A stretch of DNA of 64,000 nt from Candidatus Micrarchaeia archaeon (GCA_041663565.1 JBAYMJ010000003.1:4188-68187); one strand, 5' to 3'; shown: positions 18,964 through 38,848, counted from the first letter of the stretch. Made by a program: numbers and translations. The notes: a model not told the origin generated them from the sequence alone.

Positions 18964-19998
18964 TTAGAAGTTCGTGAATATGCCGCTGGTCACGCTGCGC
19001 GCAATCTGGAAGACGATGATTGACCCTATTGCCAGCAGCGGGAAGTATTTTACGCCGTAGAGTATCTTGCCGCGCGAAATCACGCCCATCAGCACCGACG
19101 CAAAGAAGGCCGTGCCTATCAGGGACATGTAGGATATGAAGATGGCGTACTCGGAGTTGATGACCACCTGACCGGAGAAGAACGGCAGCGAGTAGCCTTC
19201 GATGGCCTCGCCGGAAAACTGGCCCTTTATGCCAGAGTATATGTCCAAAAACTGCGCGGATACCGCAAGCAGGCAGGGGCTGACTATCAGGATGATGAAG
19301 AACAAAAACATCGTGTAGGAACGAGTTGAGGTTATCAGCTCCGCCTTGAGCTCCTGGTTCCGCCTGACTTCCTCCGAAATCGCGGTGAGGAGCTCGGCAA
19401 GCTGGCCGCCCGAACGCACGCTCTTTTCGAAAAGCGTGATTGTGCGCTCGAGTATCTCGGAGTCTATGCGCTCGTTGATTGAGCTCAGCGCCTCGGCAAG
19501 CGACTGGCTGGAGCCGGCCTTCACCGCCGCTATCTGGATCTCCTTCTCAAGCGGCCCGAGCTCGGCAGTCGCGGAGCGCCTGAACGCGTTGAACGGGGTC
19601 ATGCCCGCGCGCAGGTTCGCGGCAATCATGAGCAAAAACTCGGGCAGCACGCGCTCGACCTGCTCGGAGCGGGAGACTATCGAGTAGTATATCACCAAGT
19701 AGAAACCGAAAACCCCGATTGCGAAGCCTATGAAGAAGGACAGGACGCACAGCATGCCGACAAGGAGGGGCGAAAACGTGCCGAAGTCTATTATCAGGAC
19801 CTTCAGGTCCACAAGATAGAACACGAAGGGCAGGATGGAAAACAGCAGGCCGATGATTACGGAGTAGATTGCGCGCTTGCCGAACCAGCGCGCGGCGTCC
19901 TCCGAGCCGCCCGCCTTGTTTATCTTGTCCTGCAGGATGCCGCGCTGCTTGAGGGGCAGGAACTCGCCGATGCGCCTGTAGAACGAACCTAGCTTCAT
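18964..19998 (-). CDS. Type II secretion system F-family (TadC/FlaJ-like) pilus assembly membrane protein, paralogue 2
   Basis: Start trimmed to ATG 19998 (MKLGSFYRRIGEFLPL...), which forms an ATGA overlap with the upstream gene stop. It is a polytopic membrane protein with the cytoplasmic helical-domain pattern typical of GspF/TadC. Confidence 0.7.
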   Translation of the reverse strand: MKLGSFYRRIGEFLPLKQRGILQDKINKAGGSEDAARWFGKRAIYSVIIGLLFSILPFVFYLVDLKVLIIDFGTFSPLLVGMLCVLSFFIGFAIGVFGFYLVIYYSIVSRSEQVERVLPEFLLMIAANLRAGMTPFNAFRRSATAELGPLEKEIQIAAVKAGSSQSLAEALSSINERIDSEILERTITLFEKSVRSGGQLAELLTAISEEVRRNQELKAELITSTRSYTMFLFFIILIVSPCLLAVSAQFLDIYSGIKGQFSGEAIEGYSLPFFSGQVVINSEYAIFISYMSLIGTAFFASVLMGVISRGKILYGVKYFPLLAIGSIIVFQIARSVTSGIFTNF

Positions 19999-20879
19999 AC
20001 CGCGGGCCTCGATGAATTTATGTAGCCTATCAGGCCAATCTGGCCCAGGAACGCGCCGAAGAGGATGACAAGGTACGCCTCCTCGGAAAGGCCTATGCCT
20101 GAGAACGTCGAAAGCAATATGAGGAAGGTCATGCCGATGGACGGCAGCGCGGCAGCCACGAGCATGTACATGAGCACCAAAAAGTTGAGGCTTGCCGAGA
20201 AGTCCTTGACCACCTGGCGGCGGTCCACCATCAGGTTGTCCACAATCTTGCGGAGCGTGTCGTTGAGGGGTGCGCCCGAGTCGAGCGCAGTGAGCAGCTG
20301 CCACACTATCTTCTTGAGGTACTCGCTGCGGCTGCGGAGCGCCATGCGCTCGAGCGCCTTCTTTTCGGGCATGCCGTTGTTTATGTCGCGAACGGTTATC
20401 GCGAACGCGCGCGAGGCGTAGCCGTAGCTGCCCTGCGCCACGTTGAGCATCGCGTTGTACAGCGTGACCCCCGACTCTATCTGCAGCGAAAGCTCGCGAA
20501 GGGCGAACACCAGCTCGTTGTCCGTCATCTGCGCGATTTTCCGCAGCATTATTGTCGGGTAGTAGAGGTAGAACGCGAGCGCGCAGGCGAATGCGAGGGC
20601 CACCATGCCAAGCAGGAAGAACGCGCTCAGCTGCGCGCCTATCAGGGTGATGAAGAAGAACAGGAAGCCGAGGAAGAACGCGATTATGCCTGCTGAAAAC
20701 GTGGCGGCGCCGATGTAGTCCTCCGGGTCGAAGTTCTCGAAAAGCTGCACCAGGTCGTTGCGCACGCCGGGCAGCAGCATCAGCACGTTGGCGGCTATGT
20801 TGTGCATCTTGTGCGAGAAGCCGCGCTTGGGCTGGATTAGCAAGAAGGGTATGCGCGCCTGCTTGACCTGCGGTTGCAT
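19995..20879 (-). CDS. Type II secretion system F-family (TadC/FlaJ-like) pilus assembly membrane protein, paralogue 1
   Basis: 294 aa, polytopic, directly downstream (6 nt) of the secretion ATPase. Confidence 0.7.
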   Translation of the reverse strand: MQPQVKQARIPFLLIQPKRGFSHKMHNIAANVLMLLPGVRNDLVQLFENFDPEDYIGAATFSAGIIAFFLGFLFFFITLIGAQLSAFFLLGMVALAFACALAFYLYYPTIMLRKIAQMTDNELVFALRELSLQIESGVTLYNAMLNVAQGSYGYASRAFAITVRDINNGMPEKKALERMALRSRSEYLKKIVWQLLTALDSGAPLNDTLRKIVDNLMVDRRQVVKDFSASLNFLVLMYMLVAAALPSIGMTFLILLSTFSGIGLSEEAYLVILFGAFLGQIGLIGYINSSRPAV

Positions 20880-20885
20880 CGAGCC

Positions 20886-22637
20886 TCAGACCTTCTCCGG
20901 CGAGATGTTCTTCTCGACCGCGTCAATCACCGACGCCTCGTCGGCATAGTAGGCCTTCATCACGCCGCCCACCTGGTCCGCGTTGTTCCATTTCCATTCG
21001 TTCATCCAGTCCAGTATCGCCGCCTTGTTCTGCTGATCCTCGATGATCTCGCGCTCGATGAGGCCCGTGTGCAGGTTCATGTAGTCGTAGTAGCGCGAGG
21101 GCGCCTTGACGAACTCGTACGAGTCCGAGCGCGGCCTCCACAGGTAAACGTGGTTGAGGTCGGGCATCCCGTCCGTCGGGATGACTTCGGAAATCTCGAG
21201 CGTCCGGCGCAGGTTCTTGCGCCTGTCGCGGTACTGCATCACGACAAGGTTTATGGCCTCGAGCTCGTTCTCGGGAATCTCGATGGGCGGGTGCGTAAGG
21301 CGGTTGACGAGCTGCACGCCGGTATCGGCGTGTACCGTCGAGAGCACGGAGTGGCCCGTGTGCATGGCCTCGAAGAGCACCTCGGCTTCCGCTTTCCTGC
21401 GGATTTCGCCGAGTATGATTCGGTCGGGGCGCATGCGCAGGGCGTTTATCATCAGGTCGAGCGTGGTTACCTCGCCCTTTCCTTCCTGGTTTGCCGAGCG
21501 GGAGATGAGCGGAATCCAGTTCCACTCGTACTTCGCAGGCATCAGCTCGCGCGTATCCTCGATGGTGACCACGCGGTGGTGCGGCTGGATGAGCGAGAAC
21601 AGCGCGTTGAGCATGCTGGTCTTCCCGCTTGCCGTCCCGCCGCCAATCAGGACGTTGAACTCGTAGTGCACCGACTGCCATATGAGCGCGGCCATCTCCG
21701 GCGAGAGCGTCTTGTTGGCGCCGTAGGACAGGTTGACTATGGTCCACGGGTCGCGCGAGAACTTGCGGATGGTCAGGGTGTTTCCTGCGGATGACACCGG
21801 CATGAGCGTGGCGTTCACGCGGTCGCCGGTGTCAAGCTGCGCGTCAAGAAGCGGCGAGAGTATGCTGACCTGTTTTCCTGCGCGCCTGCTGATGAGCGAG
21901 GCCATGTTGGAGACGTCCTCGTCCGTGCCGATGAAGAGGTTGGTGTGCATCCAGCCGTACTTGCGGTGGTAAACGCCGATGGGCTCGTCGCCCTTGTTGA
22001 TTATGATTTCCTCGGTATTGGCGTCCTGCATGAGCACGTCGATGTCGCCGAGGCCGTACATGGAGCGCGTGATTATTCCCGCAAGGACGGGCAGGTCCTT
22101 GTCTGCAGGCGCAAGCTCCGCCTTTATCTTTGCGCTCACCATCGCGTACTTCTCGGCCGGGGTCTGACCCTTCTTGGAGCCGAACGCGCCTGAAGAATCC
22201 GCCGGCGCCTCCTTCGCTATCTCGTCCTGTAAATAGGAAAAGTAAATCCTGCTGTAGGGGCTGACCGAAGGCACGTCGACATGGTAGACCGGCCTGCGGG
22301 AGAAGTTGTCGAAGAAGATTTTTACGGTGGTGACGACGTCGCCTTCCTCGGACTTTATCGGGTAGGAGTCTATCATCTCCGACGCGGGCTTTGGCACCGC
22401 GCGCTCGGACAGCTCGGTCTTGAGGTTGACTATTGGGTCTTCCGCTATGTTGAGCGGGTAGTATAGGTCAACGACCGAGTGGGCCTCCAGGAGCTTGACT
22501 ATGCGGTCAACGGCATCCGGCGACCAGTCGAGGCGCTTCGCAGCCTCGCCTACGGTAAGGTCGCCTAGCTTAATCAGGTCAATCAGGTCGTCTATCTTGG
22601 TCCGAATCATGGGTATGAGCCCCGCAAGCCACTTCAT
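20886..22637 (-). CDS. Type II/IV secretion system ATPase (archaeal FlaI/PilB-like)
   Basis: Walker A GGGTASGKTSMLNAL, VTIEDTRELM, RMRPDRIILGEIR, AMHTGHSVLSTVHA. Confidence 0.85.
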   Translation of the reverse strand: MKWLAGLIPMIRTKIDDLIDLIKLGDLTVGEAAKRLDWSPDAVDRIVKLLEAHSVVDLYYPLNIAEDPIVNLKTELSERAVPKPASEMIDSYPIKSEEGDVVTTVKIFFDNFSRRPVYHVDVPSVSPYSRIYFSYLQDEIAKEAPADSSGAFGSKKGQTPAEKYAMVSAKIKAELAPADKDLPVLAGIITRSMYGLGDIDVLMQDANTEEIIINKGDEPIGVYHRKYGWMHTNLFIGTDEDVSNMASLISRRAGKQVSILSPLLDAQLDTGDRVNATLMPVSSAGNTLTIRKFSRDPWTIVNLSYGANKTLSPEMAALIWQSVHYEFNVLIGGGTASGKTSMLNALFSLIQPHHRVVTIEDTRELMPAKYEWNWIPLISRSANQEGKGEVTTLDLMINALRMRPDRIILGEIRRKAEAEVLFEAMHTGHSVLSTVHADTGVQLVNRLTHPPIEIPENELEAINLVVMQYRDRRKNLRRTLEISEVIPTDGMPDLNHVYLWRPRSDSYEFVKAPSRYYDYMNLHTGLIEREIIEDQQNKAAILDWMNEWKWNNADQVGGVMKAYYADEASVIDAVEKNISPEKV

Positions 22638-22753
22638 TACATTTCCGGGCTATTTCATTGTTTAGGTTTGCAGGGCGCCTTTGACGGCAATATGCCGTTT
22701 TCGGCAATCCCGCCAAAAAGCCCGTTTCAGGCTCCTGCCGGGTCCTGCGGCCC

Positions 22754-24283
22754 TCAAATCATGTCAAGGATTACTTTCTCAATCTCGATGACCGGGTACT
22801 GGTCGATGCGCGAGCACACGTAGGAAAGCGCGTGGGGCGAGGACGAGTACGCCTCGAAGAGCACGTCGCCTTTCCGGATGCGCTGCTCCTTGCGCGCCTT
22901 GAGGATTATGCCTGCCTGCTTGTCCGACGGCGCGCCGAGCGCGCGGCAAAGCCGGAAGATTGCCTTGTTGTCTATGTGGCCCACCTTGCCGTCGGCCTTG
23001 GACTTGATGCGGGTCATTTCAGCTGAAATCTTGATTTGCGAGGCCCTGACGTCCGGGTTGCCTCCCTGCGCCCCGATTATCTCACGGAACTTCTCCTCCG
23101 CCTTGCCGGACTCCAACTGCTTTCTTGCAAGGGCGTATGCCTTGTCCTTGTCCATCTTCTTGGCCATCTGCAGGATGACCGAGCTCATTATCATCGCCTT
23201 CTCTGCAAGCTGCTGGTTGGACTTCCCTCCGTCGGCAAGGGTCTCAAGGACCGCCCTTGCCTCCAGGCTCGGGCCTATCGAGTTCATCGCGGGCTCGGAG
23301 CCGTCGGTGATTATGCAGTTCAGGCTCATCCCCAGGCGCGAGGAGAGCATCTTGAAGCTGTTGGCAAGCGAGTTGGCCTCCTTTAAGTCGTCAATCTTGC
23401 TCCCGCGGCCGACCGGTATGTCCAAGAGCACGTGCTTTGCGCCCTCGGCCTTCTTCTTTGCAAGTATGCTGGAAAGGAGCAGGCCCGACGGGTCGAGCCG
23501 CAGGGGGTGGCGCACCTGGATGAGTTTGTCGTCAGCTATTGCGATGTTCACCCCGCCGCCCCAGACCAAGGCGCCGCCGGTCTTCTTCGCAACTTTCTCC
23601 ACCTGCTCGCGCGACAGGTCAACCGGCGCCAGCACTTCCATCGCGTCGGCAGTGCCGCTGGCAGAGCTTATTGCGCGCGAGGCGGTCTTTGGTATCGTGA
23701 TTCCGCAGGACGCGATTATGGGCACTATGAGCATGGAGACGCGGTCCCCCGCAACTCCGCCGATGCTGTGCTCGCTTGCCACTATCGAGCCTTTCGGGAA
23801 GTGCATCGCCTCGCCCGAACGCACCATGGCCTTGGTAAGGCCGACAATCTCGTCGGGCGCAAGCCCGCGGATGTAGATTGCGGTGACGAATGCCGACAGC
23901 TCGGCCACCGAGAAATTCTCGACCATCAGGTCGTCTATTATCTGGCCGATCTCGGCCTCGGTAAGGCTGAGGCCGTCAAGCTTCTTGCGGATGAAATCCA
24001 GGCTCTGCGGCCGCTGTGCCTTCTCCACGCATATCTGCTTCCCCTCGCAGTCGCCGAGCTTGGAGGACACGTCGGCAAACAGGCTTATCTCGTCGGTCCG
24101 CACGTACTTGTCGGAGTAGTCCGCAAGCGCGAGCACCTTCCTCCTGCCGTACGAGATGAGGATGCGGTCGCCCTTCTCTATGTTGAGCTTGTGCGCGGTC
24201 TCGTCGTTGAGCACGGCCACGTTGATTCCTGCCTCGACGTCGAAGCACCTGGCCTTGTAAGTGTTGACACAAATATTAGGCAT
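22754..24283 (-). CDS. AMP phosphorylase (thymidine phosphorylase family with the archaeal N-terminal domain)
   Basis: 509 aa. Extra N-terminal domain (FDVEAGINVAVLNDETAHKLNIEKGDRILI), then the glycosyltransferase-family-3 core (SIGGVAGDRVSM, TASRAISSASGTAD). Confidence 0.8.
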   Translation of the reverse strand: MPNICVNTYKARCFDVEAGINVAVLNDETAHKLNIEKGDRILISYGRRKVLALADYSDKYVRTDEISLFADVSSKLGDCEGKQICVEKAQRPQSLDFIRKKLDGLSLTEAEIGQIIDDLMVENFSVAELSAFVTAIYIRGLAPDEIVGLTKAMVRSGEAMHFPKGSIVASEHSIGGVAGDRVSMLIVPIIASCGITIPKTASRAISSASGTADAMEVLAPVDLSREQVEKVAKKTGGALVWGGGVNIAIADDKLIQVRHPLRLDPSGLLLSSILAKKKAEGAKHVLLDIPVGRGSKIDDLKEANSLANSFKMLSSRLGMSLNCIITDGSEPAMNSIGPSLEARAVLETLADGGKSNQQLAEKAMIMSSVILQMAKKMDKDKAYALARKQLESGKAEEKFREIIGAQGGNPDVRASQIKISAEMTRIKSKADGKVGHIDNKAIFRLCRALGAPSDKQAGIILKARKEQRIRKGDVLFEAYSSSPHALSYVCSRIDQYPVIEIEKVILDMI

Positions 24284-24419
24284 GTTTTCTGACCCCGTTT
24301 TGCAAGCAGATTAATGCGGGGTGGATTAAAACGGTAATGTCGAATGGCTCCCCTGCGACCCGCCGGCTGCTTACTGCCGACCCGCCACAAAAACCTCCCG
24401 CGCGCTGGGAACGGTTAAA

Positions 24420-25586
24420 ATGCACTGCCTTCCTCGTAAGTTGGGGGAAACGATGCGCGGCCAAGCCTCAACTGAATACCTGGTAGTCCTCGGTGCGGTC
24501 CTTGCGGTCGGGCTGGTCGCAGTAGGCACCATGGCCGCGCTCCCGTCGTTCGGCCAGATGGCAAGGCAGCAGCAGCTTGACCAGTACTGGATGGCCGCGA
24601 CGCCCTTCTCTATAACGGCCATCAAGCTCAGCGACGGCAACTTCTCGCTTTCCGTCGCAAACAACGCAAAGAAGCCCGAGGTGCTTACAGGCATCGAGCT
24701 TGGCACGGGCACGCAGGTAATCCAGTTCTGGGCGTCCAACGGCTCGCAAAGCTTCCGGCCGGGCCAGGAAACGGTGGTCGCGAACGAGTCGTTCAACTTT
24801 TCAGGAAACCCCTGCTTCGGCAAGCCCGTCGGCACGTATTACGAGTTTGACAACATCACACTAGTCTACACCGAAGGGAGCATCCCCGGCATGCGCCAGG
24901 CGGGCATGGGCATCGCGGGCGCCTGCTCGGGAGTGGACCTGACCTCGCCGGCGGTCAACGCACAGCCGGGATACGCCTTCCTTTCAGGCTACGTGCACGA
25001 CGCTTCGGGCGCCGGGCTTGCAAGCGCGCGCATCAACGTCACGAACGCGACGAACGCCCTCTCGGCGGTGACCGACGCTTCGGGCTACTACTGGCTCAAC
25101 GTCCCGCTTTCCGGGTCCTCGCAATTTTCGGTCAACGCAAGCTCCGGCGCGATGTACAACTACACCGCGACAACGGTGCTCCTCATAACAGAGACGCCCG
25201 CCACGCTCAACTTCGTGATAGGCAGCCAGCCGGGAATAGAGTACATTACGTTCATCCGGGACGCCTCCGGAAGCAATGTCGCTGCATTCACGACTTCGGG
25301 CAACCTTGTGCTGAAGGGCGGGTGCTACTCTGGAGCGAGCTGCTCAACCCCGCCGGACGGCTCGCTCATAATACGCGACTCCTCCGGGACGGCCCACGCG
25401 TACATCAACAGCTCGGGCAGCCTCTGCGTCGAGGACGCGAACTGCAACTACTACGATTCCAATTGCAACGACGCGCCCGACGGCTCGCTGATACTGCGAA
25501 GCCCTTCTGGCGCGAACGCGACGTACATAAGCCCGACGGGCACGCTGTGCACGATTGGCGAGATTTGGCAGTACGGCACGCCATAG
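24420..25586 (+). CDS. Prepilin-like protein (class III signal peptide) with a CarboxypepD_reg-like domain and Cys-containing C-terminal repeats; ATG likely at 24453
   Basis: MRGQ/ASTEYLVVLGAVLAVGLVAV is a canonical archaeal pilin signal. ...GYVHDASGAGLASARINVTNATN...GYYWLNV has the carboxypeptidase-regulatory-like pattern. The repeats are PPDGSLIIRDSSGTAHAYINSSGSLC and APDGSLILRSPSGANATYISPTGTLC. Confidence 0.65.
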   Translation: MHCLPRKLGETMRGQASTEYLVVLGAVLAVGLVAVGTMAALPSFGQMARQQQLDQYWMAATPFSITAIKLSDGNFSLSVANNAKKPEVLTGIELGTGTQVIQFWASNGSQSFRPGQETVVANESFNFSGNPCFGKPVGTYYEFDNITLVYTEGSIPGMRQAGMGIAGACSGVDLTSPAVNAQPGYAFLSGYVHDASGAGLASARINVTNATNALSAVTDASGYYWLNVPLSGSSQFSVNASSGAMYNYTATTVLLITETPATLNFVIGSQPGIEYITFIRDASGSNVAAFTTSGNLVLKGGCYSGASCSTPPDGSLIIRDSSGTAHAYINSSGSLCVEDANCNYYDSNCNDAPDGSLILRSPSGANATYISPTGTLCTIGEIWQYGTP

Positions 25587-25616
25587 TCGTGCTTCGGAAA
25601 ATTATCTTGATTCGAG

Positions 25617-27320
25617 TTGAGAAAAATGAAAAAAGAAAACGCGTTCGCAAACAAAACCCGCCTTGCAATGGCCCTGCTGTTTGCAGTCTTCCTCTCAGGC
25701 ATTGCGACCGCAGGCAGCGTGATAATCCAGAACGGCCAGGTCAACGCGAGCTCGAGCTTCAACGCAAGCAACGTCCTCTTCGTCAACCCCGTGACGGGAT
25801 ACGTGGGCATCGGCACTGCAACATCGACGAGGCCGCTTCAAATCTCCACAATCCAAGACGCGAACATCCGCCTGCAAGACACGTCGGGTTCCGCGCCAGC
25901 AGCATATGTGGAATTCTACAACGACACCACCAGATGGGGGTACGTCGGCCTGGGAGGGCACGACGACAAGATGGTCATCGGCACGAACATAGAAAAGAGT
26001 CTTTCTTTCTACACGAACAACTCGCCAAAGATGGTCCTGACCGCAGACGGAAAAGTGGGAATCGGCACAACAGACCCGCAGGCAAAGCTTGACGTGAACG
26101 GGACGCTGAACGCGTATGCGTTCACGGTCAACGGTTCCGCGCTGGCCGCGGGTTCGAACCAGTGGAACACGTCAGGCGCGAACATCTACAACACAACTGC
26201 AAACGTCGGCATAGGCACGTCAAGTCCAATGGCCGCATTACACGTCAATGGTTCAGCGTCCAGTTTTGAAACCAGGCTGCAGACTACTGCAAACAACGTC
26301 CTGTTAAACTTCAGGGACCGCTTGGGAAATTATCAGGTGGGCGTCAGTAGTGGGTTCTCGACGCCCTCTTGGTACGTTTACGACGCCACTGCAGGCACAA
26401 CGCGTTTACTCATCGACGGCAACGGCAACGTGGGCATCGGGACGACGTCCCCTGCCAAGAAACTGGACGTGGCCGGAGACATCCAGGCTTCCGGCGATGT
26501 CTGCGCCAACGGCACCTGCCTCAGCTATTTCTCCTGCCCCAGTGGCGGCACCCTAAAATGCACCGAAACCGTGGACGCCGGGTCGATTGTCTTTAAGGTT
26601 ACGGGCGTCGGGTCGACGACTTGGTCCCCGCCCGACGGGGTCACCTCGGTAAGGTACCTCATCGTCGGCGGCGGGGGAGGCGGTGCGACATACGAAGGCG
26701 GGGGAGGCGGAGGTGGCGGAGTGCTGACCGGGACGGTCAGCGTAACTGCAGGAACCGTTTATACCATCACTGTCGGCAGGGGCGGCCTGCCAGCACAAAA
26801 CGGACAGAACACGTATTTTTCCCCAGTAGGCACTGCATTAGGCGGAGGCGGCGGGGTAACGTTTAGCTCCAATGGCTTGAGCGGGGGTTGCGGGGGTGGT
26901 GGCGGCTCGTCCTTCTACGGGTATTCCGGCGGTACCGGCACCTCCGGGCAAGGCTATAATGGCGGCGCTGGCACGAGCGAAGGCATAGATGGCGGTTACG
27001 GCGGAGGAGGCGGAGGCGCTGGCGGTGCAGGATCCAGTTCAAGTGGCGGGATTGGCCTTGCGTCAACAATTACGGGCACGAAAGTGTATTACGCCGGCGG
27101 TGGCGGAGGCGGCGGCAATTGGAACCTTGCTACCGGGTCGTCAAATGGGCTCGGAGGCGGAGGCCACGGCGGCGGATTGAATAACGATGCAAAGAACGGT
27201 ACCAACGGGCTTGGCGGTGGAGGCGGAGGCGCGGGTTTTGTCGCTGTGGGGTCGGGTGGTGCGTGGCCAGCGGCATTTGGCGGTTCGGGCCTCGTCATCC
27301 TGCGCTATAACGTACCTTAA
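25617..27320 (+). CDS. Secreted tail-fibre-like protein A: conserved N-module, GxVGIGT repeats, hyper-glycine-rich C-terminal domain
   Basis: Sec signal ...LAMALLFAVFLSGIATAGS. Repeated motif G(N/K)VGIGTTxPxxKLDV. C-terminal domain VRYLIVGGGGGGATYEGGGGGGGG...GGSGLVILRYNVP. Many N-x-S/T sequons. Confidence 0.7.
   Translation: MRKMKKENAFANKTRLAMALLFAVFLSGIATAGSVIIQNGQVNASSSFNASNVLFVNPVTGYVGIGTATSTRPLQISTIQDANIRLQDTSGSAPAAYVEFYNDTTRWGYVGLGGHDDKMVIGTNIEKSLSFYTNNSPKMVLTADGKVGIGTTDPQAKLDVNGTLNAYAFTVNGSALAAGSNQWNTSGANIYNTTANVGIGTSSPMAALHVNGSASSFETRLQTTANNVLLNFRDRLGNYQVGVSSGFSTPSWYVYDATAGTTRLLIDGNGNVGIGTTSPAKKLDVAGDIQASGDVCANGTCLSYFSCPSGGTLKCTETVDAGSIVFKVTGVGSTTWSPPDGVTSVRYLIVGGGGGGATYEGGGGGGGGVLTGTVSVTAGTVYTITVGRGGLPAQNGQNTYFSPVGTALGGGGGVTFSSNGLSGGCGGGGGSSFYGYSGGTGTSGQGYNGGAGTSEGIDGGYGGGGGGAGGAGSSSSGGIGLASTITGTKVYYAGGGGGGGNWNLATGSSNGLGGGGHGGGLNNDAKNGTNGLGGGGGGAGFVAVGSGGAWPAAFGGSGLVILRYNVP
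25711..26072 (+). repeat. Copy 1 of the ~360-bp shared 5' module of the fibre paralogues
   Basis: Read directly. 25887..25999 is 113/113 identical to 27602..27714. Confidence 0.85.
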
Positions 27321-27334
27321 CAAATTACGAGTGG

Positions 27335-29485
27335 ATGAAAATGGGAAAAGAAACCGGCATTGAAAAAAGCGCTCTTGCAAAAATACTTGCAATTACCGCG
27401 CTCCTGCTGACTGGCCCCGCTGCCGCAGGCAGCGTGATAATCCAAAATGGGCAAATCAACGCGAGCAATAGTTTCAATGCAAGCAACGTCCTCTTCGTCA
27501 ACCCCGTGACGGGATACGTCGGCATCGGCACTGCAACATCGACAAGGCCGCTGCAGATTGCCGCAGCACAGGATGCCGTGATTCGGTTGCAGGACACTTC
27601 AGGTTCCGCGCCAGCAGCATATGTGGAATTCTACAACGACACCACCAGATGGGGGTACGTCGGCCTGGGAGGGCACGACGACAAGATGGTCATCGGCACG
27701 AACATAGAAAAGAGCCTCTCTTTCTACACTAACGATTCCCCGAAGATGACGCTGACTGCGGCGGGAAACGTGGGCATCGGCACAACAAGCCCATCTATGC
27801 GGCTTGAACTCGTTGGCAGTCTAGCCAATACCGATTCGGAAAACATACTAGGACTTACCCGGCAATATTATGAAGGTGTATCGCATCCAAATGCGGCTGC
27901 TTTTGCCCTTAGTCACCCCAGCGATAACACTCCAAATAGCAGACTCGACATCAAACTATCAAACCAACTATATACTCCCAACCCGAACATCACGGTCATG
28001 TCCCTCCGGGCGGATGGCAACGTCGGAATCGGCACGATGAGCCCTTCGGCGAAATTGGATGTCGTGGGCGGGCAGACCATCAGCGGCAGTTTGTCCGTTG
28101 GCAGGAGCACGTATTACGCGGATGCTAAGATACATATCTTTGCAAGCGGTGGCGGCAGGATCATCCAGATGAATGCGAACGACAGTGACGTTTCAACGAG
28201 TGTCTATCAGTTGATGGCTGCGAAGGATTCGGGCGGCATTAATCGTTGGTGGAATTTCGGGGTCAATTCCGACAACAGCTTTAGGATAAATCCAGGACCC
28301 GACAACATCGGTGGTTCGATGTTCGTCGTCAGTTCAAGCGGCAACGTCGGCATAGGCACGACTTCGCCCAGTACGCTGCTTCACGTGGCGAAAGCAAACG
28401 GAGATGCTTACATCATCATGCAACGTACGGGCACAAGCGCTTCGTCCTACAGCGTCGGGACGCAGGCTACTGGGTTTGCCATCTATGATCAGACTGCGGC
28501 GACAACCCGGCTTGCTATTGGCAGTTCCGGCAACGTCGGCATCGGAACCACCAGTCCATCCAGCGTTCTGGAAATCTATAAGGCAAGCAGCGGAATAGGG
28601 CCGACTTTGACGTTGAACAACCCGACTGGCGCTGTCGGGTCAGCCGGGGTTGCGATAGACTTCGTGGGTTACAGCCCCGCGAGCCAGCCAATCACAAACA
28701 GGATTCAGACAATAGATGACGGGACCTACGGATATCATATGGCCTTCTTGACTAAGGCGGATAGTTCCGGCGGAGCACTTTTTGAAGCTGTGAGGATACA
28801 GGGTGGAACAGGCAACGTCGGCATAGGCAATACTGCGCCTACAGGCAGGCTATCAGTAGAGGGAGCGGCAAGCGACGCTTCATTGACATCCAAGGCAACC
28901 TCGTTGGTGTCCATTACGAATCCAACCAACGACTTGGAATTTGCGATTGGCCAGATGGCCGGGGCGCCATACGCAACTTGGCTGCAAAATAGGAATTATG
29001 AAGTAACTGGTCAATATTATCCAATTGCATTGCAACCACTGGGTGGATCTGTCGGTATCGGTACCACCAGTCCCGGCTACACCCTGACCGTAGCCGGAAC
29101 CGCTTGGGTGACTTCCGGTTCGTGGTCGGGCTCGGACGCTAGGTGGAAGAGGAACGTGACTGCGCTTTCGCCTTCGAGTTCGCTTGACAAGATTCTCGCG
29201 CTGCGGCCGGTCAACTTCGAGTGGAAGACCGAGGAATATCCTAAGATGGGCTTCACCAACGGTACGCAAGTCGGTTTCATCGCACAGGACGTCGAAAAAA
29301 TAATCCCCGAAGTCGTCACGACGGACAACAACGGCTACAAGGGGATGTCCTATGAGAGGCTGACGCCAGTAATCACCGGAGCGATGCAGGAACAGCAGAA
29401 GCAGATTGAAGTGCTTAAGGCGGAGAACGGCCTGCTCAAGGCCGAGCTCTGTGCAAAGGACAGGACGTACTCGTGGTGCGATTGA
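27335..29485 (+). CDS. Secreted tail-fibre-like protein B: conserved N-module, long GNVGIGT-repeat shaft, C-terminal Peptidase_S74-type intramolecular chaperone domain
   Basis: It has the same N-module as A and C and at least 7 GNVGIGT(T/M)SPS repeats. The C-terminus SDARWKRNVTALS...LRPVNFEWK...VGFIAQDVEKIIPEVV...GMSYERLTPVITGAMQEQQKQIEVLKAENGLLKAEL matches the auto-cleaving chaperone of phage tail fibres and endosialidases. Confidence 0.75.
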   Translation: MKMGKETGIEKSALAKILAITALLLTGPAAAGSVIIQNGQINASNSFNASNVLFVNPVTGYVGIGTATSTRPLQIAAAQDAVIRLQDTSGSAPAAYVEFYNDTTRWGYVGLGGHDDKMVIGTNIEKSLSFYTNDSPKMTLTAAGNVGIGTTSPSMRLELVGSLANTDSENILGLTRQYYEGVSHPNAAAFALSHPSDNTPNSRLDIKLSNQLYTPNPNITVMSLRADGNVGIGTMSPSAKLDVVGGQTISGSLSVGRSTYYADAKIHIFASGGGRIIQMNANDSDVSTSVYQLMAAKDSGGINRWWNFGVNSDNSFRINPGPDNIGGSMFVVSSSGNVGIGTTSPSTLLHVAKANGDAYIIMQRTGTSASSYSVGTQATGFAIYDQTAATTRLAIGSSGNVGIGTTSPSSVLEIYKASSGIGPTLTLNNPTGAVGSAGVAIDFVGYSPASQPITNRIQTIDDGTYGYHMAFLTKADSSGGALFEAVRIQGGTGNVGIGNTAPTGRLSVEGAASDASLTSKATSLVSITNPTNDLEFAIGQMAGAPYATWLQNRNYEVTGQYYPIALQPLGGSVGIGTTSPGYTLTVAGTAWVTSGSWSGSDARWKRNVTALSPSSSLDKILALRPVNFEWKTEEYPKMGFTNGTQVGFIAQDVEKIIPEVVTTDNNGYKGMSYERLTPVITGAMQEQQKQIEVLKAENGLLKAELCAKDRTYSWCD
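27425..27787 (+). repeat. Copy 2 of the shared 5' module
   Basis: 27479..27576 is 97/98 identical to 29629..29726. 27602..27714 is identical to copy 1. Confidence 0.85.
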
Positions 29486-31257
29486 ACCGGAAGGCGGTTG
29501 GTAAAAAAATGAAAAACAATGTTCTTTTTGGAATAGTTTTCCTGACGTTTCTTTTCCTCTTCGGAACTGCAGCAGCTGGCAGCGTGATAATCCAGAACGG
29601 CCAGATTAATGCAAGCAGCAACCTGAACGCAAGCAACGTCCTCTTCGTCAACCCCGTGACCGGATACGTCGGCATCGGCACTGCAACATCGACAAGGCCG
29701 CTGCAGATTGCCGCAGCACAGGATGCGAACATCCGGCTCCAAGACACCTCGGGCGCATCGCCGGCCGCTTACGTCGAGTTCTACAACGACACCACGCGCT
29801 GGGGCTATGTGGGCTTGGGTGGGCACGACGACAAGATGACCCTTGGAACAACGATTGAAAAGAACCTCTCATTCTACACGAACAACAGCCCCAAGATGAC
29901 AATAACTACGACAGGCAACGTGGGAATTGGGACGGCGAGCCCGGCTGCCAAGCTTGACGTGAACGGGTCGATTTTTGTAGAGCCTGACGCGTGGAATAAT
30001 TCAATCGTTTACTTTGCCAACACCACTGGCTCGGCTAAATGGCACATAGTGCGGATGGATAATGATGGGTCGCTAAGAGTCACGGAAAGCGGCGTTGCGG
30101 ACAGGGTCACAATCCAAAACGGCACCGGCTACGTCGGCATCGGGATGACTAACCCCCTTGCGAAAGGGCACATCCTTTTGGGGTCAGCTGGGACTACGCC
30201 AAACTTCACCATCGCACCTTCCTTGATTTTGGAGCATTCCGGGTACGACGGCCAACTGCAATTTTTAGCCCCGTCAACAAGGGCGTCGTACATAATGTTC
30301 GGCGACGAGCGGAATTACGCGCGTGGAGGCATAGTCTACGACCACCGCGCCGGCTCGGAATCGCTGGCGCTTTCCAGCCAGAACGGAAGCGTGACCATAG
30401 TTGCTGGAGGCAACGTCGGCATCAACACCTCAACCCCCGCGTCCAAGCTGCAGGTTGCAGGCGGGGAAGTCCAGACTGGCACAAGCAACGCGTCGTGCTC
30501 AAGCTCCAACGCTGGAGCCATAAGGTGGAGTGGGAACAGCTTCTGGGCGTGCAACGGCACGATGTGGGCATACGTCAACTTGCAGGCGCCGGTTGCCGCC
30601 ACCGGCGGGACGATAACAGACATCGCAGGCTACCGCGTGCACACATTCACAAGCGGCGGCACGTTCACAATCACAAGCGGCAGCGGGCCTTTTGAAATCC
30701 TTATCGTCGGTGGCGGGGGCTCTTACGGCAATCCTGGCGCTTGGGGCGGAGGCATGGGCGGCGCCGGCGGAGTCCTGATGGGCACGCTGACCGGCTTGAG
30801 CGGAAGCTATTCGGTAGTGGTCGGTGCTGGCGGAACCGGCGGGTCGAACACGGGCACCCAAGGCAGCAGCTCAAGTTTCGGAAGCTACACCGCCTATGGC
30901 GGGGGCTATGGAGTCAACTTTGCCACCTATGGCAACGGCGCGAATGGAGGGTCTGGAGGAGGCTGCGGATATGGCGGGTGCTCTGGAGGAAGCTCCACAC
31001 AGACGTCGCAAGCACCCTTGGTCGGGTATGGAAATGCCGGCACGATTTTTGGCGGAGGCGGCGCGGGCGGGGCGGGCCAATCCTACGCGGGCGGGCTCGG
31101 CATTTACAGCACCATCTCTGGACAGTCAGTATATTATGCATCTGGAGGCGAACAAGGCGAGGGGTCCTACATAGGGCAGGGAGGGTGCGGGTACCAGTCC
31201 ACGAGCGGCTGCAATGGCAAGACCGGAATAGTAATCATCCGATACCCGCGGCCATAG
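29473..31257 (+). CDS. Secreted tail-fibre-like protein C: conserved N-module, distinct middle region, glycine-rich C-terminal domain; ATG likely at 29509
   Basis: MKNNVLFGIVFLTFLFLFGTAAAGS signal. The N-module is near-identical to A and B. The C-terminal domain runs from FEILIVGGGGSYGNPGAWGGGMGGAGG to NGKTGIVIIRYPRP. Confidence 0.7.
   Translation: MVRLNRKAVGKKMKNNVLFGIVFLTFLFLFGTAAAGSVIIQNGQINASSNLNASNVLFVNPVTGYVGIGTATSTRPLQIAAAQDANIRLQDTSGASPAAYVEFYNDTTRWGYVGLGGHDDKMTLGTTIEKNLSFYTNNSPKMTITTTGNVGIGTASPAAKLDVNGSIFVEPDAWNNSIVYFANTTGSAKWHIVRMDNDGSLRVTESGVADRVTIQNGTGYVGIGMTNPLAKGHILLGSAGTTPNFTIAPSLILEHSGYDGQLQFLAPSTRASYIMFGDERNYARGGIVYDHRAGSESLALSSQNGSVTIVAGGNVGINTSTPASKLQVAGGEVQTGTSNASCSSSNAGAIRWSGNSFWACNGTMWAYVNLQAPVAATGGTITDIAGYRVHTFTSGGTFTITSGSGPFEILIVGGGGSYGNPGAWGGGMGGAGGVLMGTLTGLSGSYSVVVGAGGTGGSNTGTQGSSSSFGSYTAYGGGYGVNFATYGNGANGGSGGGCGYGGCSGGSSTQTSQAPLVGYGNAGTIFGGGGAGGAGQSYAGGLGIYSTISGQSVYYASGGEQGEGSYIGQGGCGYQSTSGCNGKTGIVIIRYPRP
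29577..29937 (+). repeat. Copy 3 of the shared 5' module
   Basis: See copies 1 and 2. It is more diverged from A and B in the 3' half of the module. Confidence 0.85.
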
Positions 31258-31337
31258 GCCGGCCAAAGACGCGTGCAAAATGGAAAGGCCTGCGCCCATT
31301 TCGTAGGTTATATATTGCCCATCGGTGAAACTCCTGT

Positions 31338-31634
31338 ATGGACTTCGCAAAGTCGGCTGAACGGACGCCCAAGAAGGCAAAAATAGCAATCGGAATACTC
31401 GTGGTGCTGCTTGTCGCGGCCCTCGGCTACATCGGCTGGGGCGTGTATCAGCAGCAGAGGTACGACGACGCCCTCGGCGCGTACAAGCAGGGCTACACGC
31501 AGGGGGTCACGGACGCCACCACCACGCTCTACCAGTACACCGACGGGTGCGGGGCGGCGAAGCTGTTTTTGGGCAACGTGACGCGGCAGGTAGTTGACCT
31601 GGACTGCGTAAAGCAGGCCAACTCTACAGGCTAA
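31338..31634 (+). CDS. Small single-pass membrane protein, hypothetical
   Basis: 98 aa. Basic N-terminus, TM segment IAIGILVVLLVAALGYIGWGV, and two Cys in the ectodomain. Confidence 0.45.
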   Translation: MDFAKSAERTPKKAKIAIGILVVLLVAALGYIGWGVYQQQRYDDALGAYKQGYTQGVTDATTTLYQYTDGCGAAKLFLGNVTRQVVDLDCVKQANSTG

Positions 31635-31835
31635 GCCCAAGGGGGCTTTTGCCAAAAGGCCGTTTGTGGGCAGTTGCAAACCATTAAGAATTATTCCAAG
31701 CCTACTCTTGTTGTTATACACCCAGCCGAAGGCTGATTTTTGGCTGCGGCGACCGGCCGAGGGCGGTGAAGGCACCGCAATTGGTTTTAACTTTGCCGCA
31801 CAACCTAAGATTACAAGCTTTGGAAGTGGATTATT

Positions 31836-32951
31836 ATGCCCGTCAACTTCGAGGAAATGTTCGCAAAAGGCCCGGGGATACCCCTGTCACGTACAGTGGT
31901 AACCGAGCCAGGCAAGCCGATGAACGATGACGACATCGAGCTGATGAGGATACTCGAGGAGAACCGGCCAAAGATTTGCATAGTGGGCACTGGCGGCTCG
32001 GGAAACAACACCCTTAACCGCATCCAGGAAGTCGGCGTCATAGGCGCGCACCTTGTTGCGATGAACACGGACGCGCAGCACCTGCTCAAGACGCGCGCGG
32101 ACAAGCGCATGATACTTGGAAGGAAAAAGACCAAGGGTTTGGGCGCGGGCTCCAACCCCGAAGTGGGAGAGGCTGCCGCGCAGGAGTCCGAGCAGGAAAT
32201 CAAGGACATAGTCGGGAACGCCGACCTTGTATTTGTGACCTGCGGCATGGGCGGAGGAACTGGCACCGGCTCTGCGCACGTTATTGCGCGCTGCGCAAAG
32301 CAGTCCGGCGCGCTGTGCATCGCAATAGTCACCACACCATTCTCTTCGGAAGGATTGAAGCGCAAGGAAAATGCGATGAAGGGCCTGGAAAAGCTCAAGC
32401 TCGAAGCCGACACAACAATCGTGATTCCCAACGACAAGCTCTTGGAATACGTGCCTGACTTGCCGCTGAACGCGGCGTTCAAGGCAGCTGACATGGTCCT
32501 TGCCAACGCGGTCAAGGGAATTGCGGAGCTCATCACCAAGCCCGGGCTTGTGAACCTGGATTTTGCCGACGTGCGCACGATTCTTGGGGACTCGGGCAAC
32601 GCGATGATTGGCCTGGGCGAGATGGAAGGAAGCGACATGCCCGACCGCGTCGTACAGGCTGCCGAAAAGGCGCTCACTTCGCCGTTCTTGGACATGGACG
32701 TTTCATCCGCATCAAAGGCGCTCATCAACATAACCGGCGGCTCGGACATGACCCTCGGCGAGGCCGAGGCTGCAGTCACCGCAATCAGCAGGAGCATCGC
32801 TCCTGACGCCCACATCATCTGGGGCGCGACAGTTGACGACGGCATAAAGAACCGCGGGGTCCGCGTGCTGGCCGTGCTCTCCGGAGTGCGCGAAAGGCAG
32901 CCCACGGCGCAGACTACGGGAGAGGCAGTCGAGAACATCGACTTCATTTAA
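31836..32951 (+). CDS. ftsZ: Cell division protein FtsZ
   Basis: CIVGTGGSGNNTLNRI, tubulin signature GMGGGTGTGSAHVIA, NLDFADVRTIL. Confidence 0.9.
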   Translation: MPVNFEEMFAKGPGIPLSRTVVTEPGKPMNDDDIELMRILEENRPKICIVGTGGSGNNTLNRIQEVGVIGAHLVAMNTDAQHLLKTRADKRMILGRKKTKGLGAGSNPEVGEAAAQESEQEIKDIVGNADLVFVTCGMGGGTGTGSAHVIARCAKQSGALCIAIVTTPFSSEGLKRKENAMKGLEKLKLEADTTIVIPNDKLLEYVPDLPLNAAFKAADMVLANAVKGIAELITKPGLVNLDFADVRTILGDSGNAMIGLGEMEGSDMPDRVVQAAEKALTSPFLDMDVSSASKALINITGGSDMTLGEAEAAVTAISRSIAPDAHIIWGATVDDGIKNRGVRVLAVLSGVRERQPTAQTTGEAVENIDFI

Positions 32952-37401: not shown

Positions 37402-37499
37402 AAGAAGATTCCCTTTCCTAAATCTTTAAACGTTGGCAAATAATCCTGCCTCAACGGGCCGACCTACCTTTTTTTAACTCCCTTTTTTGTCTTACAATT

Positions 37500-38738: not shown

Positions 38739-38757
38739 ACAGGCAATACGAAGTGAA

Positions 38758-38782
38758 CCTCCGGAGATGCTGACTCCGGAGG
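38758..38782 (+). terminator. Perfect hairpin CCTCCGGAG-atgctga-CTCCGGAGG downstream of 37500..38738
   Basis: 9-bp stem and 7-nt loop, 20 nt past the stop codon. Read directly. Confidence 0.45.
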
Positions 38783-38791
38783 AGCCTAGAC

Positions 38792-38826: not shown

Positions 38827-38848
38827 ATAGATTAATATTCATTCTCAA

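What the first reader, a model, noticed from the sequence alone, without database searches (positions are those of the whole stretch)
25711..29937. Mosaic near-identity between the 5' modules of the three fibre genes points to ongoing gene conversion / cassette shuffling
Segment 25887..25999 (gene A) is 113/113 identical to 27602..27714 (gene B). The immediately upstream segment of B (27479..27576) is instead 97/98 identical to gene C (29629..29726). There, A differs markedly (cttcaaatctccacaatccaagac versus ctgcagattgccgcagcacaggat).

Further on, A and C share gcgaacatccg.ct.caagacac where B differs (gccgtgattcggttgcaggacac). The best-matching partner therefore switches along the module. This is the signature of recombination between paralogues rather than simple divergence after duplication. 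Downstream of about codon 150 the three genes are essentially unrelated at the nucleotide level.
Basis: seen in the sequence. Interest (0 to 1): 0.7.

Follow-up and report, generated by a model that had tools for sequence, protein, structure and literature searches.

The report
Recombining fibre-adhesin gene array in archaeon
Three neighbouring genes of a tiny symbiotic-type (DPANN, Micrarchaeota-like) archaeon encode phage-tail-fibre-like surface fibres, and they keep a shared front end by copying patches from one another while their binding ends are swapped, a known way of diversifying adhesins seen here in a new setting.

Summary
A 25887-25999 equals B 27602-27714 (113/113). B 27479-27576 matches C 29629-29726 (97/98). 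The closest pair changes along a gapless 399-nt module. Identical tracts are longer than chance allows (A-B and B-C p about 1e-5, A-C 2e-4), and clustering holds at synonymous sites (p 9e-5).

The genes are cellular, not viral. They lie between a type-IV-pilin-like gene and ftsZ in an archaeal chromosome whose ValRS is nearest to Candidatus Micrarchaeota. Each encodes a signal peptide, a constant all-beta module of about 130 aa, a shaft with VGIGTxxPxxxL loops, and a variable tip. B carries a Peptidase_S74 chaperone with SDARWK; A and C carry Gly_rich_2. Sequence and predicted fold match the Bdellovibrio MAT fibres.

Related 1.2-Mb contigs carry 10-11 family members each. The syntenic array holds 1 to 5 genes. 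Two arrays about 97% identical where they align differ by cassette replacements that start at or just before the module end.

Gene conversion with cassette shuffling is supported. "Ongoing" is not shown, and an assembly artefact cannot be excluded without reads. I rate it a new variant of a known kind, of moderate interest.

The parts
24420..25586 (+). Gene for a type-IV-pilin-like protein. It has a class III signal peptide (MRGQASTEYLVVLGAVL), a CarboxypepD_reg Ig-like domain, and a Cys-rich C-terminus ending YISPTGTLCTIGEIWQYGTP. It sits 39 nt upstream of fibre gene A on the same strand.
   Evidence: Pfam CarboxypepD_reg E 1e-9. Eight such genes, all ending ..QYGTP, lie directly upstream of a fibre gene (the window plus seven loci). 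The same gene end is seen in L081 and L107.
25626..27320 (+). Fibre gene A (ORF opens at TTG 25617; likely ATG 25626). It encodes a Sec-type signal peptide, the constant module, 3 VGIGTxxPxxxL loops and a Gly_rich_2 tip, with no S74 domain.
27335..29485 (+). Fibre gene B. It encodes a signal peptide, the constant module, a longer shaft with 6 VGIGTxxPxxxL loops, and a C-terminal Peptidase_S74 intramolecular chaperone.
29509..31257 (+). Fibre gene C (ORF opens at GTG 29473; likely ATG 29509). It encodes a signal peptide, the constant module, a shaft and a Gly_rich_2 tip. Its counterpart in the G20 array is the last gene, L089_5323 (59% aa identity).
25707..26105 (+). Constant 5' module of A, the recombination substrate. 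It begins at the predicted signal-peptide cleavage region (..TAG/SVIIQNG) and ends after the first GxVGIGTxxPxxKLxVNG loop.
   Evidence: The AF2 model of the equivalent B segment is all-beta with pLDDT 86.8.
27422..27820 (+). Constant 5' module of B.
29572..29970 (+). Constant 5' module of C.
25887..25999 (+). A copy of the A=B conversion tract. It is 113/113 identical to 27602-27714. C differs from both at 28 sites here.
   Evidence: The best match of this block to any relative's family member is 93/113.
27602..27714 (+). B copy of the A=B conversion tract.
27479..27576 (+). B copy of the B=C tract, 97/98 identical to 29629-29726. Within it, 27520-27575 has 0 B-C mismatches against 12 differences to A.
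29629..29726 (+). C copy of the B=C tract.
25861..25886 (+). Patch where A and C agree (3 mismatches) and B differs from both (10). It encodes ANIRLQDT in A and C versus AVIRLQDT in B.
26078..26105 (+). 3' end of the module where A and C agree (5 mismatches; AKLDVNG) and B differs (17-18; MRLELVG).
29132..29317 (+). Peptidase_S74 (endosialidase-type intramolecular chaperone) domain of B, with the catalytic-type motif SDARWK at residue 600.
   Evidence: Pfam E 2e-17. Motif found. PDB sequence hit to the MYRF ICA domain 7dc3.
26607..27308 (+). Gly_rich_2 (PF21722) tip domain of A.
   Evidence: Pfam E 3e-22.
30652..31245 (+). Gly_rich_2 (PF21722) tip domain of C.
   Evidence: Pfam E 2e-11.
19995..22637 (-). 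Context: type-IV-pilus-type assembly genes, a T2SSF platform protein (19995-20879) and a T2SSE ATPase (20886-22637), 3 kb upstream on the opposite strand. A functional link to the fibres is inferred only.
   Evidence: Pfam T2SSE E 1e-33. Pfam T2SSF E 3e-15.

Best explanation
The locus is a tandem array of three chromosomal genes in a DPANN-type (Micrarchaeota-like) archaeon. The genes encode secreted fibre proteins like phage tail fibres, built as the Bdellovibrio 'mosaic adhesive trimer' (MAT) fibres are. Each has a signal peptide, a constant all-beta module of about 130 residues, a beta-helical shaft with VGIGTxxPxxxL capping loops, and a variable tip. The tip is a self-cleaving S74 chaperone in B and a Gly_rich_2 domain in A and C.

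The 399-nt DNA encoding the constant module is repeatedly patched by short-tract homologous recombination (gene conversion) between the tandem copies. Tracts run from about 25 to 113 nt. This keeps the module nearly uniform within a genome.

The same homology acts as the handle for unequal crossover and cassette replacement. Through it, array size and the distal (binding) parts change between closely related strains.

Shown here:
- the mosaic and its statistical significance;
- grouping of the three modules by genome;
- the protein architecture and its similarity to MAT fibres;
- cassette breakpoints at the module end in related genomes;
- variable copy number of the array.

Inferred:
- the proteins are trimeric surface adhesins used for host or partner recognition;
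- the constant module docks them to a common cell-surface partner, possibly the pilin-like protein encoded directly upstream;
- uniformity of the module is selectively useful rather than a by-product.
For: Mosaic:
- 113/113 (A-B) and 97/98 (B-C) identity.
- 39 runs of informative sites against 73.6 +/- 4.8 expected, p<1e-5.
- Longest difference-free tracts: A-B p 1e-5, B-C p 1e-5, A-C p 2e-4. A synonymous-only runs test gives p 9e-5.
- The A=B block is 100% identical, while no family member in relatives exceeds 93/113.
- In an NJ tree of the 360-nt core, A+B+C form a clade (bootstrap 0.82). This clade excludes L089_5323, the counterpart of C by position and by C-terminal domain.

Independent assemblies show the same behaviour:
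- The module of L089_2941 switches from L099_3724-like to L082_26-like, p 5e-5.
- The G20 and G31 arrays are about 97% identical where shared, but cassettes are replaced 476 nt and 397 nt after the gene starts, and one gene is present only in G20.
- The syntenic array holds 1 gene (L084, L103), 3 (window), 4 (G31) or 5 (G20).

Protein identity:
- Pfam S74 and Gly_rich_2.
- PHROG tail-fibre families.
- PDB sequence hits to Bdellovibrio fibres 8ojn/8onb/8onc and 8ond.
- AF2 model with pLDDT 86.8. All 15 top Foldseek PDB hits are Bdellovibrio MAT fibres, 13 of them with E<0.01.
- MAT architecture as published in PMC10769870.

Cellular, archaeal context:
- AMP-phosphorylase-like gene, FtsZ, Spt5, L11, archaeal HMG-CoA synthase.
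- ValRS nearest to Ca. Micrarchaeota.
- No hit in viral contigs.
Against: - No reads or population data are available. 'Ongoing' recombination and the reality of the identical blocks in single molecules are untested.
- With only three sequences, each site pattern is formally a change private to one copy. Some patches (A's LQISTIQD, B's AVIRLQD) may therefore be imports from family members elsewhere in the genome rather than exchanges among A, B and C. A donor search was inconclusive.
- Bootstrap for the A+B+C clade is only 0.82.
- Lineage-specific duplication could explain part of the within-genome similarity, though not the partner switching.
- The constant module resembles MAT shaft repeats, not the distinct N-terminal domain seen in the one Bdellovibrio gene examined. 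The 'anchor' role is therefore by analogy only.
- No expression, localisation or binding data exist.
Confidence: 0.75

Rival explanations
1. Assembly or polishing artefact. The identical blocks and the mosaic were created when reads from paralogues (or co-existing strains) were collapsed, mis-joined or cross-mapped during consensus building of a metagenome contig.
For: The window appears to be metagenome-derived. Its proteins A, B and FtsZ are not on record as exact sequences. A Logan contig of the same strain breaks inside gene C. Repeats of about 100 nt at more than 80% identity are a classic problem for assemblers and polishers.
Against: - The mosaic switches partner at least five times within 400 nt, on a scale of 25-113 nt. 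A graph mis-join would swap everything downstream, not make patches.
- All three ORFs stay intact and in frame.
- The same kind of mosaic and cassette breakpoints occur in independent assemblies from other samples.
- The identical block is shorter than a typical read.
Confidence: 0.08
2. Ectopic conversion. The copy-specific patches (A 25838-25860, B 27577-27601 and 27793-27820) were imported from other members of the family of 10 or more elsewhere in the genome, rather than exchanged among the three tandem genes. The tandem genes are then recipients of a genome-wide exchange network.
For: - Relatives carry 10-11 members at several loci on a 1.2-Mb contig.
- L089_2941 in the syntenic array carries a 3' module part resembling L082_26, the head of a second cluster of family members that lies about 66 kb from the array in G31.
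- B's AVIRLQD variant also occurs in other subfamilies.
Against: - No better donor than the tandem partners was found for any patch among the available relatives.
- The zero-difference A-B and B-C tracts need exchange between the tandem copies themselves.
- The rest of the source genome is not available.
Confidence: 0.3
3. No recombination. The modules diverged after duplication and look alike because of strong purifying selection on the protein or on the nucleotide sequence (for example an embedded RNA or regulatory element).
For: The module is the most conserved part of the family at protein level, with 35 invariant columns across 20 diverse copies.
Against: - Clustering persists at synonymous sites in codons with identical amino acids, p 9e-5.
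- C carries 28 differences, 18 of them synonymous, in the block where A and B have none. The block therefore tolerates change.
- Counterpart genes in relatives differ freely at these sites.
- No Rfam family is present.
Confidence: 0.03
4. The genes are tail fibres of an integrated virus, tailocin or extracellular contractile injection system, and the mosaic is ordinary phage tail-fibre modular exchange.
For: PHROG tail-fibre families match, and the S74 domain is typical of phage fibres.
Against: - The flanks are housekeeping genes conserved in synteny across relatives (AMP-phosphorylase-like, FtsZ, Spt5, L11). No capsid, sheath, tube, baseplate, integrase or terminase was found among the ORFs scanned.
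- The module pattern has 0 hits in 2.9 million viral contigs.
- Every copy has a signal peptide.
Confidence: 0.03
5. Programmed diversification by a dedicated element: a diversity-generating retroelement, or a site-specific invertase 'shufflon' as in phage Mu/P1 tail-fibre switching.
For: These systems target tail-fibre-like and adhesin genes.
Against: - Mismatches show no adenine bias.
- No reverse transcriptase or recombinase was found among the ORFs scanned.
- All module copies are direct repeats on one strand.
- The variable parts are whole domains, not a short variable repeat.
Confidence: 0.01

Closest known systems
Bdellovibrio bacteriovorus mosaic adhesive trimer (MAT) fibre superfamily (Caulton et al. 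2024, PMC10769870)
   Same: - Architecture: signal peptide, a beta-rich domain of about 130 aa conserved among all paralogues directly after it, and a beta-helical shaft with V-G-x-G-x-x-x-P-x-x-x-L capping loops.
- Tips: either an S74 self-cleaving chaperone (SDxxxK) or a non-S74 tip domain.
- Repertoire: a multigene family per genome (21 in HD100; 10-11 here) with evolutionary 'tip swapping'.
- Direct sequence hits and fold hits to Bd3182, Bd2133, Bd1334 and Bd2439 fibres.
- The authors even raise a possible interplay with type IV pili.
   Different: - The host here is an archaeon with no outer membrane.
- The constant module looks like a shaft repeat rather than the separate N-terminal domain of the one Bdellovibrio gene inspected.
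- The proteins are shorter (about 560-720 aa against about 1,000).
- The genes are arranged in tandem arrays headed by a pilin-like gene.
- Gly_rich_2 tips were not among the tip folds named in the passages of the paper read here.
- Nucleotide-level gene conversion between paralogues did not appear in the passages searched for 'recombination'.
Modular exchange in phage tail-fibre genes (conserved N-terminal virion-attachment part, exchangeable C-terminal receptor-binding part; S74 fibres of K1F and T5)
   Same: Constant N-terminus with a variable C-terminus, recombination breakpoints at the domain boundary, an S74 intramolecular chaperone, and PHROG tail-fibre homology.
   Different: These are cellular chromosomal genes with signal peptides in conserved housekeeping synteny. 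No virion genes are nearby and there is no match in viral contigs.
Concerted evolution and gene conversion in bacterial surface-protein multigene families (e.g. Neisseria opa and pilE/pilS; general knowledge, examples listed)
   Same: Short-tract, non-reciprocal exchange between paralogues produces mosaic alleles. Conserved segments flank variable cassettes and serve as recombination substrates.
   Different: - Here the conserved part is what gets homogenised, while whole distal domains are swapped.
- All copies appear to be intact expressed-type genes rather than silent cassettes.
- No evidence exists for high-frequency programmed variation.
- The organism is an archaeon.

Membership tests
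MAT (mosaic adhesive trimer) fibre superfamily | Signal peptide followed directly by a beta-rich domain of about 130 aa conserved among all paralogues | tested here: met
   Hydrophobic N-termini are followed by ..A(A/T)G/SVIIQNG. 36 copies align over about 130 aa. The AF2 model is all-beta with pLDDT 86.8.
MAT (mosaic adhesive trimer) fibre superfamily | That N-terminal domain is homologous to the Bdellovibrio MAT N-terminal domain | tested here: inconclusive
   The one B. bacteriovorus gene examined (L063) matches through a C-terminal shaft repeat, and its N-terminus looks different. Some Bdellovibrionales loci match query residues 29-130 at 36-43%, but the position of the match within those proteins was not checked. 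The module folds like MAT shaft segments.
MAT (mosaic adhesive trimer) fibre superfamily | Beta-helical shaft with recurring capping-loop motif (VG.G...P...L) | tested here: met
   3, 6 and 3 VGIGTxxPxxxL motifs in A, B and C. The motif aligns residue by residue with Bd3182 (8ojn) and Bd2133 (8ond). All 15 top Foldseek hits are MAT fibres.
MAT (mosaic adhesive trimer) fibre superfamily | C-terminus is either an S74 chaperone/protease with SDxxxK, or an alternative tip domain | tested here: met
   B: Peptidase_S74 E 2e-17 and SDARWK at residue 600. A and C: Gly_rich_2.
MAT (mosaic adhesive trimer) fibre superfamily | Large repertoire per genome with diverse tips | tested here: met
   11 and 10 copies on two 1.2-Mb contigs of relatives, with lengths from about 450 to 1,170 aa.
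MAT (mosaic adhesive trimer) fibre superfamily | Trimeric, surface-exposed, binds target-cell surface glycans | not testable with these tools
   Only a monomer model of the module was made. No localisation or binding data exist.
Gene conversion / concerted evolution between paralogues | Pairwise difference-free tracts longer than expected given the variable sites | tested here: met
   A-B 28 sites (p 1e-5), B-C 12 sites (p 1e-5), A-C 9 sites (p 2e-4).
Gene conversion / concerted evolution between paralogues | Closest partner differs between adjacent segments (no single tree) | tested here: met
   Segment table. Runs test p<1e-5.
Gene conversion / concerted evolution between paralogues | The signal holds at synonymous sites, so it is not selection on the protein | tested here: met
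   55 synonymous informative sites form 21 runs against 33.9 +/- 3.2, p 9e-5.
Gene conversion / concerted evolution between paralogues | Paralogues within a genome group together against counterpart genes in related genomes | tested here: met
   A+B+C clade with bootstrap 0.82. It excludes L089_5323, the counterpart of C. Support is moderate.
Gene conversion / concerted evolution between paralogues | Events are ongoing (polymorphic in the population) | not testable with these tools
   No reads are available. The exact proteins are not on record elsewhere.
Phage / prophage tail fibre | Encoded within a viral genome or next to virion structural genes | tested here: not met
   Housekeeping flanks are conserved in relatives. 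0 matches in viral contigs.
Diversity-generating retroelement target | Adenine-specific mismatches between repeats, and a nearby reverse transcriptase | tested here: not met
   No adenine bias among 69-92 mismatches. No RT among the ORFs scanned.
Invertase-driven tail-fibre shufflon (Gin/Cin/Min type) | Inverted crossover repeats and a site-specific recombinase | tested here: not met
   All three module copies are direct repeats on the + strand. A both-strand search finds 3 matches, all +. No recombinase was found.

The most novel reading that the evidence does not exclude
The unit 'pilin-like gene plus 1-5 fibre genes' is the host-recognition apparatus of this Micrarchaeota-like DPANN lineage. 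In this reading, MAT-like trimeric fibres dock through their constant N-terminal module onto a type-IV-pilin-like anchor or pilus. This would replace the outer-membrane anchoring of bacterial predators. Recombination within the constant module, and at the dispersed GNVGIGT-coding microhomologies, swaps binding tips. Strains about 97% identical across the shared parts of this array would then display different host-binding repertoires. That would be a convergent or shared 'predator/episymbiont fibre toolkit' spanning Bdellovibrio, Patescibacteria and DPANN archaea.
Probability: 0.3. Interest if true: 0.8.

Novelty: new variant of a known kind. Interest (0 to 1): 0.55.

Why it matters
How DPANN archaea recognise and attach to their hosts is an open question. 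The abstract of PMC11329633 says that the molecular details of host recognition remain unknown.

This locus offers concrete, testable candidates. It is a family of MAT-like fibres, 10 or more per genome, in genomes of only about 1.2 Mb. Most are headed by a pilin-like gene. Their binding ends differ between arrays about 97% identical where they align.

The mosaic in the window shows the DNA mechanism that keeps the common attachment end uniform and provides the homology for tip exchange. The process itself, gene conversion in adhesin or tail-fibre families, is well known, so the evolutionary mechanism alone is not surprising.

Tried and rejected
- Scan of GTDB representative genomes with the module: only distant relatives (39% or less), mostly Patescibacteria, Bdellovibrionota, Bacteroidota and DPANN. 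No orthologous locus was found. The general GNVGIGT patterns saturated the scan.
- Word-indexed protein searches: one close hit only (P0001); the rest were short fragments.
- Viral contigs: none.
- Exact-sequence look-ups of A, B and FtsZ: not on record, so no population variants could be retrieved. The small ORF 31338-31634 gave only a 1.7-kb Logan contig that does not reach the modules.
- Search for outside donors of the A-specific and B-specific patches among 33 related copies: no convincing donor.
- Bacterial-type promoter/terminator scan: not above shuffles, and not appropriate for an archaeon.
- Rfam: only tRNA-Cys.
- DGR, invertase shufflon, prophage and eCIS readings were rejected.
- Literature searches for DPANN or Patescibacteria tail-fibre-like or S74 adhesin families, or for gene conversion in DPANN: nothing specific was found.
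- A PHI or four-gamete test was not run. With three sequences, pairwise tract tests are the appropriate evidence, because each site pattern alone is only a change private to one copy.

Full report
**1. Observation**

Three ORFs lie head to tail on the + strand:
- A: 25617/25626-27320
- B: 27335-29485
- C: 29473/29509-31257

Their 5' parts are in gapless register (offsets +1715 and +2150) from about 25707 to 26105. A 25887-25999 equals B 27602-27714 at 113/113. B 27479-27576 matches C 29629-29726 at 97/98, while A matches B there at only 86/98. Over the 399-nt module the identities are A-B 82.7%, A-C 77.7% and B-C 76.9%. The differences are very unevenly spread.

Mismatches per segment, in A coordinates, given as A-B/A-C/B-C:

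| Segment | A-B | A-C | B-C |
|---|---|---|---|
| 25805-25860 | 12 | 12 | 0 |
| 25861-25886 | 10 | 3 | 10 |
| 25887-25999 | 0 | 28 | 28 |
| 26078-26105 | 18 | 5 | 17 |

**2. Is it more than chance?**

With three sequences, each informative site only says which copy is the odd one out. Partner switching alone is therefore not proof of recombination. What matters is whether pairwise distances are homogeneous along the module, and they are not.

- Conditional on the 121 variable sites, the longest difference-free run is 28 sites for A-B (p 1e-5), 12 for B-C (p 1e-5) and 9 for A-C (p 2e-4).
- A runs test gives 39 runs against 73.6 +/- 4.8 expected (p<1e-5).
- Restricted to synonymous sites in codons encoding the same residue in all three genes, it still gives 21 runs against 33.9 +/- 3.2 (p 9e-5).

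No single tree can make A-B, B-C and A-C each the closest pair in different segments. Selection on the protein cannot explain identity at synonymous sites. In the 113-nt block where A and B are identical, C carries 28 differences. The best match to any family member in related genomes is 93/113. So the block tolerates change, and the identity is recent.

Downstream of the module, blastn finds only 18-56-nt matches, at least some of them at the recurring GNVGIGT-coding motif.

**3. What the genes are**

- *Domains.* Pfam finds Gly_rich_2 at the C-termini of A and C and Peptidase_S74 at the C-terminus of B. B has the SDxxxK-type motif SDARWK. PHROGs match tail-fibre families.
- *Solved structures.* Sequence search against the PDB hits the Bdellovibrio fibres Bd3182 (8ojn/8onb/8onc) and Bd2133 (8ond), and the MYRF S74-type domain.
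- *Predicted fold.* An AlphaFold2 model of the constant module is all-beta with pLDDT 86.8. All 15 of its best Foldseek PDB matches are Bdellovibrio MAT fibre structures, 13 of them with E<0.01.
[quoted passage not shown] That is what is seen here.
- *One difference.* The constant module here resembles MAT shaft repeats. The unit is a very widespread repeat: 45,536 cluster representatives match it, including giant proteins with up to 54 copies. The one B. bacteriovorus gene I inspected matched through a C-terminal shaft repeat, not through its N-terminus.

**4. Context**

The locus is cellular and archaeal.
- Upstream are a T2SSF/T2SSE pilus-assembly pair, an AMP-phosphorylase-like gene and a pilin-like gene with a class III signal peptide.
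- Downstream are a small membrane protein, FtsZ, Spt5 and L11.
- Elsewhere in the window are archaeal HMG-CoA synthase, class II HMG-CoA reductase, ValRS, CysRS and pyruvate kinase.
- The ValRS has its nearest named relatives (58-60% identity), and essentially all named hits, in Candidatus Micrarchaeota/Micrarchaeia. The organism is therefore a DPANN-type archaeon.
- No virion, injection-system, reverse-transcriptase or recombinase genes were found among the ORFs scanned. The module pattern has no match in viral contigs.

**5. Relatives**

A degenerate pattern for EFYNDTxRWGY found 26 metagenome loci. Two 1.2-Mb contigs carry 11 copies (G31) and 10 copies (G20) at several loci.

The array between the pilin-like gene and ftsZ is syntenic with the window, with flanks 80-88% identical. 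It holds 1 gene in L084 and L103, 3 in the window, 4 in G31 and 5 in G20.

In an NJ tree of the 360-nt core, A, B and C form a clade (bootstrap 0.82). Its sisters are the first array genes of G31 and G20, and L089_5323. The latter is the counterpart of C by position and by C-terminal domain (59% aa identity). This is concerted evolution, with moderate support.

**6. Cassette shuffling**

G20 and G31 are about 97% identical wherever their arrays align, but they differ in three ways:
- In gene 2, identity stops 476 nt after the start, at the module end, and the rest of the gene is replaced.
- In gene 4, identity stops 397 nt after the start and resumes only in the last roughly 750 nt (the S74 end).
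- Gene 5, the counterpart of C, exists only in G20.

The module of G20 gene 4 is itself a recombinant. Its 5' part is like its G31 counterpart. Its 3' part is like L082_26, the head of a second cluster of family members that lies about 66 kb from the array in G31 (p 5e-5).

Window-to-G31 homology likewise runs from 22000 to 26071, the end of the A module, and then stops.

A further contig (L081) has one gene combining an A-like Gly_rich_2 domain with a B-like S74 end.

**7. Mechanism proposed**

*Shown:*
- short-tract exchange between the tandem modules;
- breakpoints of cassette replacement at the module boundary;
- expansion and contraction of the array.

*Inferred:*
- Homologous recombination (archaeal RadA-dependent, from general knowledge) between direct repeats homogenises the module and, by unequal exchange, changes copy number.
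- The GNVGIGT-coding islands that recur 3-6 times per gene may provide microhomology for exchanges further downstream.
- The proteins are trimeric surface adhesins.
- The constant module docks them to a common partner, possibly the pilin-like protein. Eight pilin-like genes ending ..YISPxGxLCxxGxxxQYGTP lie directly upstream of fibre genes, and L081 and L107 show the same gene end. In several other loci no such gene was detected upstream.

**8. Rivals**

- An assembly or polishing artefact cannot be excluded without reads. It is unlikely, given the fine-scale multi-switch pattern, the intact frames and the same behaviour in independent assemblies.
- Import of some patches from family members elsewhere in the genome is plausible. 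It would still be gene conversion.
- Pure divergence under selection, prophage fibres, a DGR and an invertase shufflon are each contradicted.

**9. Novelty and verdict**

Gene conversion and modular exchange in fibre or adhesin families are well known, and the protein architecture matches the MAT superfamily. Three things are new:
- the setting, a DPANN archaeon;
- the tandem arrays headed by pilin-like genes;
- nucleotide-level evidence for how the repertoire is reshuffled.

I found no paper describing this. Verdict: a new variant of a known kind, of moderate interest.

Noticed in passing
window 24420-25586; also L084, L093, L096, L097, L102, L103, L106 (coordinates): A class-III-signal-peptide (type-IV-pilin-like) gene with a conserved C-terminus ..YISPxGxLCxxGxxxQYGTP lies immediately upstream of the first fibre gene at eight places (the window plus seven loci). 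L081 and L107 show the same gene end. This suggests a 'pilin-like plus fibre array' gene unit. In several other fibre loci (L085, L086, L094, L095, L104) my pattern search found none upstream.
   Followed up: partly
L081 3098-3103 (ENA ERZ27247100 k141_75508): The second fibre gene on this contig has an in-frame TAA exactly where other copies encode the N/Y of G(N/Y)VGIGT. The frame continues as a normal fibre afterwards. It is a pseudogene or a sequencing error.
   Followed up: no
window 12218-13669 (-): This is a second protein with a class III signal peptide (RKGQGATEYLVVLGAVLL...), 483 aa, ending ..GNVGFRCCK. It has no NCBIfam hit, is not next to fibre genes, and lies beside the thiolase and HMG-CoA synthase genes.
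   Followed up: no
window about 37356-40217: The ribosomal protein cluster is interrupted. L11 is at 33656-34159, but L1 and L10 are at 40277-41885. Between them lie an epimerase, an oligopeptidase, a sub-threshold 'methanogenesis marker 8'-like protein and a Fic-domain protein, in a low-GC stretch (49% at 38-40 kb against 56.5% overall). Relative G31 has only about 260 nt where the window has about 2.9 kb (37356-40217). This looks like a lineage-specific insertion.
   Followed up: partly
protein representatives P0241-P0390: The roughly 110-aa unit that forms the constant module is a very widespread repeat. It matches 45,536 cluster representatives at E<=1e-3, including giant proteins of 2,000-7,900 aa with up to 54 copies. 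GTDB hits are concentrated in Patescibacteria, Bdellovibrionota, Bacteroidota and DPANN archaea.
   Followed up: partly
L108 = window 30255-31922: A Logan contig from run SRR6484787 is 100% identical to this part of the window. The same strain is therefore present in that public run, which could be used for read-level checks. The contig starts inside gene C.
   Followed up: partly
L098 2666-5509 (Ga0209749_1000002): At this locus the fibre gene is followed, not preceded, by two class-III-signal-peptide genes of a different type (MRGQTG(F/L)EYLL..., without the QYGTP end).
   Followed up: no
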